DNA from: a virus
Virus record (IMG/VR): IMGVR_UViG_3300036779_000164
Coordinates: 1-53,859 of that record
DNA: 53,859 bases
Reading direction: 5' to 3' (one strand)
Positions 16,378-16,665 of this stretch are shown here, piece after piece. Position 1 is the stretch's first letter. Each line of letters begins with the position of its first letter. The notes under the pieces were generated by a model, which ran no database searches, had not been told where the DNA came from, and was given only the letters and a program-made list of their open reading frames with translations. Made by a program: the position numbers and the translations under genes.

Positions 16378-16665
16378 TTATCGCTTAAAATTAATTATCT
16401 GTTGCTTTTTAAAAGAATTTTCTTTAGAATTCGTTTCCCAAGGGCCATGTACTTTTTCGTACCACGGGCTAATTGTTGAAATAGCATTTTTATAAATTAA
16501 TTGATATGTATCATTCAATTTCATTGAAATACTGTAAAGATCAAAATTAATAATCATTCCACGCAGTTTAATGCCATTCGTTAAAAATATGATAACTTTA
16601 GCCTCATTTTCTGCTAAGTTTTTCAGAAATTCATATTGTAATCTATTGCCTTCATTTGTATCCAT
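16378..16665 (-). CDS. hfq: Hfq-like RNA chaperone (Sm fold)
   Basis: LQYEFLKNLAENEAKVIIFLTNGIKLRGMIINFDLYSISM matches Hfq Sm1 (E. coli: [40 protein letters not shown]). YKNAISTISP matches Sm2 (YKHAISTVVP). Confidence 0.9.
   Translation of the reverse strand: MDTNEGNRLQYEFLKNLAENEAKVIIFLTNGIKLRGMIINFDLYSISMKLNDTYQLIYKNAISTISPWYEKVHGPWETNSKENSFKKQQIINFKR

What the first reader, a model, noticed from the sequence alone, without database searches (positions are those of the whole stretch)
16378..16665. Phage-encoded Hfq
The 95-aa ORF aligns position by position with the bacterial Hfq Sm1 and Sm2 motifs (VIIFLTNGIKLRGMIINFDLYSISM; IYKNAISTISP). Hfq is a core host RNA chaperone, and copies carried on phage genomes are uncommon. 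Its position next to int, in the block expected to be transcribed from the prophage, suggests the phage may rewire host sRNA regulation or service its own sRNAs. Candidate structured RNAs lie at 17046-17115 and 19991-20239.
Basis: partly seen in the sequence, partly recalled or inferred. Interest (0 to 1): 0.7.

Follow-up and report, generated by a model that had tools for sequence, protein, structure and literature searches.

The report
Phage-encoded Hfq with partner gene and small RNA
A temperate phage and its relatives carry their own copy of the bacterial RNA-binding protein Hfq, beside a conserved unknown gene and a conserved folded small RNA, so this virus lineage may bring its own RNA-regulation kit into the host.

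Summary
ORF 16378-16665(-) encodes a 95-aa Hfq: Pfam 72 bits, TIGR02383 above its cut-off, and an AF2 core that superposes on Hfq crystal structures at 0.5-0.9 A. The window is a complete circular temperate podophage genome of about 53.7 kb.

The gene is not a stray capture. Every related phage contig with sequence at this position, seven further lineages, has an hfq between the last virion gene and the integrase. It has diverged in step with the virion gene, and synonymous changes outnumber non-synonymous ones 12 to 4.

Two features are new:
- A 100-aa ORFan, orfX (16668-16970), precedes hfq in six of the seven lineages that have sequence there.
- The hairpins at 17044-17115 form a conserved structured RNA with compensatory changes. 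Its G.U pairs place it on the + strand, divergent from orfX-hfq and convergent with int.

The window's Hfq keeps the proximal and distal RNA-binding residues. It has lost the rim arginine patch (AENE instead of RRER) and His57 (now Asn), so it is probably an RNA binder rather than an efficient annealer.

I found no genuine Hfq in 50,697 deposited phage records. Host, expression and activity remain untested.

The parts
16378..16665 (-). hfq: a 95-aa Hfq-family protein. Residues about 8-67 form the Sm core, followed by a 28-aa basic C-terminal tail with a PW..G.W motif.
   Evidence: Pfam and NCBIfam matches. PDB sequence hits. AF2 model and Foldseek. Codon differences against the 94%-identical relative L002 are 12 synonymous to 4 non-synonymous. 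Residue map.
16668..16970 (-). orfX: a 100-aa ORFan predicted to be all-helical. Its stop lies 2 nt before the hfq ATG, so it is the conserved upstream partner of hfq.
   Evidence: Homologues lie immediately upstream of hfq in L002, L006-L010, L005 (partial), L001 (last 24 aa), L016 and L019. No Pfam, PDB, PADLOC or PHROG match. The single-sequence AF2 model has four helices at pLDDT 65, and its fold search is non-significant.
16971..17043 (.). Divergent control region between orfX and the RNA gene. It holds a block shared with a distant relative, and a + strand promoter-like TTGCAT (17009-17014), 17-nt spacer, TATAAT (17032-17037) ending 6 nt before the RNA 5' end.
   Evidence: The block ATAATTTCAATRCAATAMAWTTCTCCA is shared with L006 and L008, whose orfX protein is only 41% identical. 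A -10-like box sits 6-7 nt upstream of AGCCATC in the window, L016 and L019 (read from the sequence). The consensus promoter scan of this AT-rich region found no more sites than its shuffles.
17044..17115 (+). Conserved two-hairpin RNA element: hairpin A 17044-17079 and hairpin B 17081-17115. This is a candidate phage small RNA. A weak all-AU hairpin (17139-17161) and a U-run (17173-17177) may mark its 3' end, near the int stop codon.
   Evidence: The + strand folds at -36 kcal/mol (z -7.2) against -24.4 (z -3.0) for the - strand. The motif AGCCATC..GATGG-TTA-GAGGYG is conserved in the window, L002, L016/L017 and L019. All 19 tested pairs form in all 4 sequences, 4 pairs show changes on both sides, and slid controls pair at 27-60%. 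Of 76 cells, 11 are G.U, which would be A.C on the - strand. A covariance model finds one copy per phage. No Rfam match at E<=1.
17170..18339 (-). Tyrosine integrase with an Arm-DNA-bind_3 N-terminal domain. The ATG start follows the public gene call; the mechanical ORF list extends it to a TTG at 18435.
   Evidence: Pfam PF00589 (92 bits), PF13356 and PF14659. The gene call in L004 gives 389 aa.
11682..13781 (+). The last gene of the virion module (699 aa). It marks the conserved boundary of the hfq locus.
   Evidence: Homologues at 45-97% identity lie beside hfq in every related contig.
13788..16225 (-). An inserted pair of accessory genes (morons): an FkbM-type methyltransferase (13788-14672) and a 525-aa P-loop NTPase with an N-terminal hydrophobic segment (14648-16225).
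   Evidence: PF05050 at 72 bits, and weak P-loop hits only. The pair is present in L002 but absent from L001, L005, L007 and L016, where hfq abuts the virion gene.
19890..19973 (-). Phage-borne tRNA-Tyr (GTA) in the int / HTH_17 intergenic region.
   Evidence: ARAGORN. Rfam RF00005 at 68 bits.
19998..20019 (-). A terminator-like hairpin followed by T7, just upstream of tRNA-Tyr.
   Evidence: Terminator scan. Folding z-scores of -1.95 and +0.17 for the surrounding region. No counterpart in L016 or L018.

Best explanation
hfq is a long-resident accessory gene of a lineage of temperate podophages.

Shown:
- It encodes a protein with the Hfq Sm fold. The proximal-face residues (Q8, F39, D40, Y42, Y55, K56) and distal-face residues (F25, N28, G29, I30, K31, Q52, T61) are intact.
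- It lies between the last virion gene and the integrase in all eight lineages sampled.
- It is preceded by a co-conserved gene, orfX, in six of the seven lineages that have sequence there.
- In the three lineages that have both orfX and an adjacent int, a structured RNA with compensatory base changes is encoded on the opposite strand, starting about 70 nt upstream of orfX.

Inferred:
- The protein forms a hexameric ring that binds U-rich 3' ends and A-rich stretches of RNA.
- In the window's subclade the rim arginine patch is gone and the C-terminal tail is basic. It therefore probably acts by binding, stabilising, sequestering or occluding RNAs rather than by catalysing sRNA-mRNA annealing as E. 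coli Hfq does.
- Its likeliest client is the neighbouring phage RNA. That RNA converges on int and shares its control region with orfX-hfq. Together they would form a phage-borne post-transcriptional module acting on integration/lysogeny genes, on host mRNAs, or on both.
- The cassette points against the virion operon, and unrelated accessory genes are inserted around it. This fits a self-contained accessory unit, possibly expressed in lysogens.
For: Identity as Hfq.

Residue map against 113 library representatives.

Phage origin: the assembly is circular and carries phage hallmark genes.

Conservation and vertical descent: hfq is found beside the roughly 700-aa virion gene in L001, L002, L005, L006-L011, L016/L017, L018, L019/L020 and L021/L022. 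Hfq identity falls with virion-gene identity (96/97, 63/65, 54/61 and 50/61%).

Purifying selection: 12 synonymous to 4 non-synonymous codon differences.

orfX conservation.

RNA element.

Rim chemistry: position 16 is Arg in nearly all bacterial Hfqs, and the number of rim arginines tracks annealing activity (PMC3753642). The window has AENE there.

His57 substitutions still crystallise as Hfq: P. aeruginosa H57A and H57T (3m4g, 3inz) are among the structural matches.

Precedent for a mobile-element Hfq acting through its distal face: B. anthracis pXO1 Hfq3 (PMC5348863).
Against: - Nothing here shows expression, hexamer formation or RNA binding.
- The structure model is a monomer.
- The RNA covariation rests on only three independent lineages (4 sequences). 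Its 5' and 3' ends are inferred, and the putative terminator in the window is a weak all-AU hairpin.
- L018 has hfq without orfX or the RNA, and L006 has orfX-hfq without the hairpins, so the three parts are separable.
- Simple duplex-energy target prediction found no target shared between lineages.
- The host is unknown, so whether a host Hfq exists is unknown.
- H57N and the acidic rim could mean weakened or altered RNA binding.
Confidence: 0.55

Rival explanations
1. Competitor or decoy of the host Hfq. The phage protein would titrate host sRNAs and mRNAs, or form mixed rings with host Hfq. With no rim patch it would disable host riboregulation, acting as a dominant negative for the benefit of the phage.
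For: The proximal and distal faces are intact but the rim arginines are missing, and the rim is needed for annealing (PMC3753642). Overexpressed pXO1 Hfq3 is toxic through its distal face, apparently by sequestering RNAs (PMC5348863).
Against: Relatives such as L018 (rim RKEK) and L016 keep rim basic residues and His57, so a rim-less decoy is not the ancestral state. A conserved neighbouring RNA and partner gene suggest dedicated clients. The host Hfq, if there is one, is unknown.
Confidence: 0.2
2. Supply of a missing function. The host would be a streamlined, low-GC aquatic bacterium without its own Hfq, and the phage would bring one so that its own antisense or small RNAs work.
For: The genome GC is about 0.22-0.42 across the window. 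The closest cultured relatives by terminase and portal infect Pelagibacter and Roseobacter, at 31-45% and 33-35% identity. No cellular Hfq is closer than about 53% in the core among 1.8 billion cluster representatives.
Against: The host is not identified: two genome scans found nothing, and the integrase is only 26-28% identical to any phage integrase. Relatedness to the cultured phages is too remote to assign a host. I have no evidence either way about host Hfq content.
Confidence: 0.12
3. The two-hairpin element is not a separate RNA gene. It would be the 3' end of int mRNA (a terminator or processing site), or a protein-binding DNA repeat, and Hfq would have no special link to it.
For: The hairpins lie directly after the int stop codon and also fold on the - strand (z -3.0). 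In L018 a plain terminator hairpin occupies this position.
Against: Of 76 pair cells, 11 are G.U on the + strand and would be A.C mismatches on the int strand. The + strand folds are 10-16 kcal/mol more stable in all three lineages. A -10-like box sits 6-7 nt before the conserved AGCCATC start. A DNA-level repeat would not tolerate G.T pairs.
Confidence: 0.15
4. The hfq is host DNA mis-assembled into, or recently picked up by, the contig, and has no role in the phage.
For: Several 'phage' database records with hfq are bacterial DNA.
Against: The contig is circular with phage genes on both sides. Independent contigs from different samples show the same synteny. The usual bacterial miaA/hflX neighbours are absent. 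The gene has diverged in step with the virion gene and is under purifying selection.
Confidence: 0.02

Closest known systems
Bacterial chromosomal Hfq (E. coli, P. aeruginosa, L. monocytogenes; PF17209 / TIGR02383)
   Same: It has the same Sm fold: an N-terminal helix and five strands, at RMSD 0.5-0.9 A. Core identity is 40-47%. Proximal residues Q8, F39, D40, Y/F42, Y55 and K56, and distal residues F/Y25, N28, G29, I30, K31, Q52 and T61, are conserved.
   Different: - It is encoded by a phage, without the miaA/hflX neighbours.
- The rim motif is AENE instead of RRER or RKEK, so the near-universal R16 is lost.
- His57 is replaced by Asn.
- The core is neutral and the C-terminal tail is basic (+3), the reverse of the E. 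coli arrangement of a basic core (+3) and an acidic tail (-3).
- A PW..G.W motif follows Sm2 in the window's subclade.
Hfq copies on other mobile elements: B. anthracis pXO1 Hfq3, and Bacillus and megaplasmid Hfqs
   Same: These are extra Hfq copies carried by a mobile replicon. Hfq3 acts through its distal face and probably sequesters RNAs (PMC5348863). tblastn finds 478 plasmid records with an Hfq match, 395 of them from Bacillus.
   Different: They sit on plasmids, not in a virus. None exceeds 46% identity to this protein. No orfX partner or adjacent conserved RNA is known for them.
Remote Sm/Hfq-like proteins annotated in phages (for example the 'Hfq-like domain-containing protein' of Mycobacterium phages Tonenili and Phabba)
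   Same: They are phage-encoded proteins with a similar predicted fold (Foldseek E about 1e-3, TM about 0.57).
   Different: Their identity is only 15-23%, against 40-47% between this protein and bacterial Hfq chains. As far as I found, none is characterised.
cis-encoded small RNAs next to hfq genes (Legionella Anti-hfq; Burkholderia h2cR at hfq2)
   Same: In each case a small RNA gene is physically coupled to an hfq gene and regulates it (PMC5225317 and PMC3474761; titles and abstracts only).
   Different: Here the RNA is divergent from orfX-hfq and convergent with int, rather than antisense to hfq itself. No regulation has been shown.
Phage RNA-based control elements (lambda OOP and sib; P4 CI RNA; P1/P7 C4 RNA). 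Recalled from general knowledge, not tested here.
   Same: These are small structured RNAs encoded beside integration or immunity genes of temperate phages.
   Different: None of them is known to come with a phage-encoded Hfq. There is no sequence or Rfam similarity.

Membership tests
Hfq (bacterial Sm-like RNA chaperone, PF17209 / TIGR02383) | A profile match above the curated thresholds | tested here: met
   Pfam gives 72.3 bits against 27, and TIGR02383 gives 70.5 against 61.7. The stricter full-length equivalog NF001602 (64.3 against 95) is not reached.
Hfq (bacterial Sm-like RNA chaperone, PF17209 / TIGR02383) | The Sm fold: an N-terminal alpha-helix followed by a five-stranded bent beta-sheet | tested here: met
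   The AF2 model has a helix at 8-19 and strands at 23-28, 33-41, 45-50, 53-58 and 62-67, with core pLDDT 96-97. Foldseek superposes it on Hfq chains at RMSD 0.5-0.9 A.
Hfq (bacterial Sm-like RNA chaperone, PF17209 / TIGR02383) | The Sm2 motif [YF]KHAIST, including His57 | tested here: inconclusive
   The motif reads YKNAIST. Y55, K56, A58, I59, S60 and T61 are kept, and H57 is Asn in the window, P0001, P0002 and P0003. H57 is His in 93 of 113 representatives and Asn in 5. More distant phage relatives keep His.
Hfq (bacterial Sm-like RNA chaperone, PF17209 / TIGR02383) | The proximal-face uridine pocket (Q8, F/Y42, K56, plus F39 and D40) | tested here: met
   All are present, as Q10, Y44, K59, F41 and D42 in window numbering.
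Hfq (bacterial Sm-like RNA chaperone, PF17209 / TIGR02383) | The distal-face A-R-N binding residues (Y/F25, N28, G29, I30, K31, Q52, T61) | tested here: met
   All are present, with F at position 25 as in 79 of 113 representatives.
Hfq (bacterial Sm-like RNA chaperone, PF17209 / TIGR02383) | The rim arginine patch (R16 plus basic residues at 17 and 19), needed for fast annealing | tested here: not met
   The window has A-E-N-E at positions 16-19. [quoted passage not shown] This argues against E. coli-like annealing activity, not against family membership.
Hfq (bacterial Sm-like RNA chaperone, PF17209 / TIGR02383) | A homohexameric ring | not testable with these tools
   Only a monomer could be modelled. 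H57A and H57T P. aeruginosa variants appear as Hfq crystal entries among the matches (3m4g, 3inz).
Hfq (bacterial Sm-like RNA chaperone, PF17209 / TIGR02383) | RNA binding or chaperone activity | not testable with these tools
   This needs biochemistry or genetics.
Phage moron / lysogenic-conversion gene | Lies at a variable accessory locus of a temperate phage, oriented independently of the flanking operons | tested here: met
   The gene lies between the virion module and int and converges on the virion genes. The same locus holds NTPase+MTase, HSP20, an OMP beta-barrel or a Wzt_C-domain gene in different relatives.
Phage moron / lysogenic-conversion gene | Has its own promoter and terminator, and is expressed from the prophage | not testable with these tools
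   A conserved upstream block exists, but the promoter scan found no more sites than chance, and no terminator follows hfq. There are no expression data.
Phage moron / lysogenic-conversion gene | Sporadic distribution among related phages | tested here: not met
   hfq is present in every related lineage sampled. It behaves as a lineage signature gene, not as a sporadic moron.
Hfq-dependent small RNA (for the 17044-17115 element) | A discrete structured transcript with conserved secondary structure | tested here: inconclusive
   The structure is conserved with covariation in 3 lineages and favours the + strand. The transcript itself has not been observed.
Hfq-dependent small RNA (for the 17044-17115 element) | A Rho-independent terminator with a U-tail as the Hfq-binding module | tested here: inconclusive
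   L019 has a clear GC-containing hairpin followed by UUUUCUUAU. L016 has a moderate one. The window has only a 9-bp all-AU hairpin and a distant U5.
Hfq-dependent small RNA (for the 17044-17115 element) | Binding to and dependence on Hfq | not testable with these tools
   This needs EMSA, CLIP or RIL-seq.

The most novel reading that the evidence does not exclude
A self-contained, virus-encoded riboregulatory module. It would consist of a phage Hfq, a dedicated partner protein (OrfX) and a cognate structured small RNA. The RNA is transcribed divergently from the two genes and converges on int. Together they would form an RNA-based switch for integration, lysogeny or immunity that works independently of host Hfq. 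This lineage has no recognisable CI-type repressor.
Probability: 0.25. Interest if true: 0.85.

Novelty: new variant of a known kind. Interest (0 to 1): 0.68.

Why it matters
Hfq is the central hub of small-RNA regulation in many bacteria, and until now has been treated as a host factor that phages and their sRNAs borrow. This lineage of temperate phages has kept its own Hfq through long divergence. It comes packaged with a co-evolving unknown protein and, in three of the eight lineages, a conserved structured RNA. If the parts work together, post-transcriptional regulation modules can be mobile and virus-owned.

It would also give a compact natural system of about 1 kb for three questions:
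- What can an Hfq ring without the rim arginine patch and His57 still do?
- How does a small helical protein partner with Hfq?
- How might a phage control integration or host physiology at the RNA level in uncultured aquatic bacteria?

The locus is small enough to synthesise and test directly.

Tried and rejected
- **Close relatives in genome and IMG/VR collections.** I scanned genome contigs with the protein and with a family alignment, and found nothing. Scans of viral contigs also found nothing.
- **Metagenome scan with the family alignment.** It returned only an ordinary bacterial miaA-hfq locus, L012.
- **Function of orfX.** There was no significant match in Pfam (each alignment member scanned singly), a PDB profile search, PHROGs or PADLOC. 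The single-sequence model has pLDDT 65, and its fold search gave nothing below E 1.
- **Defence-system reading of the locus.** PADLOC gave only weak P-loop and MTase noise.
- **Host inference.** Sample accessions do not appear in the literature library. Cluster names gave no taxonomy. The integrase is at most 28% identical to known phage integrases. The att-region blastn hit only tRNA-Tyr genes.
- **Dating the capture by phylogeny.** The five closest Hfqs form a clade in a core-only NJ tree, but only 3 of 20 bootstraps support it. With 63 columns and an unnamed library this cannot be resolved.
- **sRNA target prediction.** Duplex energy against all start regions in three phages gave no shared target.
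- **Searching IMG/VR for the RNA motif.** Only the contig already known (L027 = L016) is genuine; the other eight hits are chance.
- **Literature.** No paper in the library contains 'phage-encoded Hfq', and related phrases found none describing one. A paper on HTVC023P-type pelagiphages mentions neither Hfq nor integrase.
- **CI-like repressor.** None turned up among the 20 of about 30 small leftward ORFs (26-35 kb) that I scanned.
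Full report
**1. The observation**

The ORF at 16378-16665 on the - strand is real. It is 95 aa, has an ATG start, and contains both quoted peptides.

It matches Pfam Hfq (PF17209) at E 2.4e-20, with 72.3 bits against a gathering score of 27, over profile positions 1-59 of 64. It also passes the NCBIfam Hfq equivalog TIGR02383, at 70.5 against 61.7 bits.

phmmer against PDB sequences returns 35 distinct Hfq sequences, the best at E 3.8e-11. The alignments have at most one gap through Sm1 and Sm2.

An AlphaFold2 model built on a 70-sequence alignment has mean pLDDT 85, with the core at 96-97. It shows an N-terminal helix (8-19) and five strands. Foldseek superposes it on Hfq chains from Pseudomonas, Aquifex, E. 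coli, Listeria and Caulobacter at RMSD 0.5-0.9 A over about 60 residues, with 40-47% identity.

**2. The genomic context**

The window is a complete temperate phage genome. Its first and last 127 nt are identical, so the assembly is circular and about 53.7 kb long.

It encodes:
- a large terminase (35257-36882), a portal (39583-41967), head and tail-fibre proteins, SU10-type virion proteins and a DNA-ejection protein;
- a tyrosine integrase (17170-18339);
- a rightward early module of an HTH_17 protein, primase, Sak4, SSB and a Cas4-type exonuclease;

The nearest cultured phages by terminase are Roseobacter CRP-901/902 (45%) and by portal Pelagibacter HTVC027P/023P (35%). That is too remote to name a host.

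**3. hfq is a signature gene of this phage lineage**

The public protein collections hold only a handful of close relatives, all from metagenomes: P0001 at 96%, P0002 at 63%, P0003 at 54% and P0004 at 50%. In each, hfq sits directly beside a homologue of the 699-aa last virion gene (11682-13781) and converges on it.

I then searched with that virion protein and fetched its more distant homologues. Every one of them again has an Hfq-domain gene between the virion gene and the integrase:
- L016/L017 (virion protein 56% identical);
- L018 (49%);
- L019/L020 (45%);
- L021/L022, where only the C-terminus of Hfq is on the contig.

Hfq identity tracks virion-gene identity (96/97, 63/65, 54/61 and 50/61%). 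That fits vertical descent within the phage lineage rather than repeated capture.

Against the 94%-identical relative L002, hfq shows 12 synonymous and 4 non-synonymous codon differences. The figures are 6 and 7 for orfX and 46 and 41 for the neighbouring NTPase.

No cellular-type Hfq among 1.84 billion cluster representatives exceeds about 53% identity in the core. The capture is therefore old and its donor cannot be identified. A core-only NJ tree recovers the five closest proteins as a clade, but with weak support (3 of 20 bootstraps).

**4. How unusual is a phage Hfq?**

tblastn of this protein against 50,697 deposited phage records gave seven hits.
- Two are Salmonella whole-genome contigs.
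- Two that I inspected, an 'Acinetobacter phage' contig and a faecal 'Bacteriophage sp.' scaffold, carry hfq in the bacterial mutL-miaA-hfq context. A third record is a near-duplicate of the Acinetobacter hit that I did not open.
- Two are 'UNVERIFIED' Staphylococcus records, one of 386 kb. They are unannotated and I did not resolve them.

PHROGs v4 has no family matching this protein. BFVD contains only remote Sm-like viral proteins at 23% identity or less. Plasmid-borne Hfqs are common (478 records, mostly Bacillus), but all are 46% identical or less. No paper in the searchable library contains the phrase 'phage-encoded Hfq', and related-phrase searches found none describing one.

**5. Anatomy of the protein**

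Residues are given in E. coli numbering; the reference sequence is from memory and the alignment is.

| Surface | E. coli residues | Window |
|---|---|---|
| Proximal pocket | Q8, F39, D40, F42, Y55, K56 | all kept, with Y at 42 |
| Distal face | Y25, N28, G29, I30, K31, Q52, T61 | all kept, with F at 25 |
| Sm2 His | H57 | Asn |
| Rim | R16-R17-E18-R19 | A-E-N-E |

His57 is His in 93 of 113 library representatives and Asn in 5. [quoted passage not shown]

The core carries no net charge and the 28-residue tail is basic (+3). E. coli has the reverse, a core of +3 and an acidic tail of -3. The tail begins with a PW..G.W motif that is conserved in the window's subclade.

More distant phage relatives keep YKHAIST and some rim basic residues, for example RKEK in L018 and R16 in L016. 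The loss of the rim and of His57 is therefore a derived feature of the window's subclade.

P. aeruginosa H57A and H57T variants crystallised as Hfq and are among the structural matches. The substitution need not abolish the ring.

**6. A conserved partner gene**

The 100-aa ORF at 16668-16970 ends 2 nt before the hfq start codon. Word-based homology search found only itself.

Translating the DNA upstream of hfq in the relatives reveals clear homologues in L002, L006-L010, L005 (partial), L001 (last 24 residues), L016 and L019. They share the motif LN.S.E.YI....KY.I....Y.LN..IW.EI.N.KFN. Only L018 lacks it.

It has no Pfam, PDB-profile, PHROG or PADLOC match. It is predicted to be four helices at low confidence, and the fold search found nothing significant. 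Its role is unknown. Its tight coupling to hfq across deep divergence makes a functional partnership the simplest reading.

**7. A conserved structured RNA**

The 17040-17120 segment folds into two hairpins. On the + strand the fold is -36 kcal/mol (z -7.2). On the - strand it is -24.4 (z -3.0).

The motif AGCCATC...GATGG-TTA-GAGGYG recurs at the same place, between int and orfX, in L002, L016/L017 and L019. The lower stems are conserved in sequence, while the middle of hairpin B differs entirely between lineages.

On a four-sequence alignment, all 19 tested pairs form in all sequences. Four pairs of hairpin B show changes on both sides. Sliding the partners drops pairing to 27-60%.

Eleven of the 76 pair cells are G.U, including one invariant G.U. 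These would be A.C mismatches on the int strand. The + strand folds are 10-16 kcal/mol more stable in all three lineages. The structure therefore belongs to an RNA read from the + strand, divergent from orfX-hfq and convergent with int.

A -10-like box lies 6-7 nt upstream of the conserved AGCC in each lineage. In the window it reads TTGCAT-17 nt-TATAAT, at 17009-17037.

A third hairpin followed by a U-rich run lies downstream. It is clear in L019, moderate in L016, and weak and all-AU in the window.

The covariance model finds one copy per phage and none elsewhere in the window. Rfam has no match.

Part of the 73-nt orfX/RNA spacer is also conserved in L006 and L008, which have orfX-hfq but a Wzt_C-domain gene in place of the hairpins and int.

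The evidence rests on only three independent lineages. I treat the RNA as a strong candidate, not as proven.

**8. The second RNA candidate**

The region 19991-20239 shows no significant folding, with z -1.95 and +0.17. It contains one terminator-like hairpin with a T7 run on the - strand (20019-19998), immediately upstream of the tRNA-Tyr. It has no counterpart in L016 or L018. It is unresolved and probably ordinary.

**9. The surroundings are an accessory-gene hot spot**

In the window and in L002, a P-loop NTPase and an FkbM methyltransferase are inserted between hfq and the virion gene. Relatives carry other genes at this locus:
- HSP20 and an OMP beta-barrel gene in L018;
- HSP20 and a 130-aa ORF beside hfq in L019;
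- a Wzt_C-domain gene in L006.

L019 also has an MFS transporter beyond int. hfq is the constant element among these variable passengers.

**10. Most likely mechanism**

Shown:
- a phage-resident protein with the Hfq fold, under purifying selection, with intact proximal and distal RNA-binding residues;
- a co-conserved partner ORF;
- an adjacent RNA structure that shows covariation.

Inferred:
- The protein forms a hexameric ring that binds U-rich 3' ends and A-rich tracts.
- Lacking the rim patch, the window's version probably binds, protects, sequesters or occludes RNAs rather than catalysing annealing.
- Its likeliest client is the neighbouring phage RNA, whose position suggests a link to int expression or to control of the cassette itself.
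- Host RNAs may also be bound, as proposed for pXO1 Hfq3 (PMC5348863).

The rivals are a decoy of host Hfq, a substitute for a missing host Hfq, and hairpins that are merely the int 3' end. They are weighed in their own section. The first two are compatible with the main reading and cannot be separated without knowing the host.

**11. Verdict**

The protein is a genuine member of the Hfq family by profile, fold and two of its three RNA-binding surfaces. Its rim and His57 are atypical.

The setting is new. A virus lineage keeps its own Hfq, together with a co-conserved partner gene in most lineages and a conserved structured RNA in three of them. I rate this a new variant of a known kind, with interest 0.68.

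Noticed in passing
window 1-127 and 53733-53859: The first and last 127 nt are identical. The contig is therefore a circular assembly of a phage genome of about 53.7 kb. The same phage appears as a 53,378-bp Logan contig.
   Followed up: yes
window 19890-19973 (-): A full-length phage-borne tRNA-Tyr (GTA) lies between int and the HTH_17 early gene. The relative L019 carries a tRNA-Asn (18253-18328) in the equivalent intergenic region, whereas L016 and L018 carry none.
   Followed up: partly
window ~19755-19795 (-): The sequence CAGGGGTTCAAATCCTCTCAGAGGAAGCA looks like the T-arm plus 3' acceptor strand of a tRNA. It may be the attP core. Infernal did not call it at E<=1, and it does not match L019's tRNA-Asn acceptor stem.
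   Followed up: partly
window 13788-16225 (-): An FkbM/RfbT-like methyltransferase and a 525-aa P-loop NTPase with an N-terminal hydrophobic segment form an inserted accessory pair. The NTPase has its own strong Shine-Dalgarno sequence. Relatives carry HSP20, an OMP beta-barrel or a Wzt_C-domain gene at this hot spot.
   Followed up: partly
window ~26000-35200 (-): A leftward block of about 30 small ORFs has very low GC (0.22-0.27) and almost no database matches. No CI-type repressor turned up in the 20 of them that I scanned. The only hits are a 73-aa HTH_Tnp_1-like protein and the HTH_17 protein at 20240-20476.
   Followed up: partly
window 16997-17023 (-); L006 345-372: A block of about 27 nt upstream of orfX (ATAATTTCAATGCAATAAATTTCTCCA) is nearly identical in L006 and L008, whose orfX protein is only 41% identical. 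It contains a CU-rich stretch that can pair with the orfX Shine-Dalgarno sequence. It may be a shared promoter, operator or translational control element.
   Followed up: partly
L013 (MT835489.1), L014 (CAKLQH020000029.1), L015 (OR844988.1): Two records filed as phages (L013, L014) carry hfq in a bacterial mutL-miaA-hfq context, so they are bacterial DNA. The third, an 'UNVERIFIED_ORG' Staphylococcus record of 386 kb (L015), is unannotated and I did not resolve it. This is a caution for anyone counting 'phage Hfq' from such databases.
   Followed up: yes
P0005-P0024 (representative library hits): Many of the best-scoring library hits are 140-200-aa proteins with two tandem Hfq domains. They match the NCBIfam model NF010691 type.
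   Followed up: no
L019 14014-14283 (+): The public gene call of an 89-aa ORF here overlaps the conserved two-hairpin RNA (14116-14190). It is probably a spurious call over an RNA gene.
   Followed up: no
L019 (contig Ga0572176_0000005, 100,623 bp): The contig is about twice the phage genome length, yet it shows the circular-form gene order (virion genes, hfq, int, HTH_17, primase). It may be a concatemer or a larger relative. I did not examine this.
   Followed up: no
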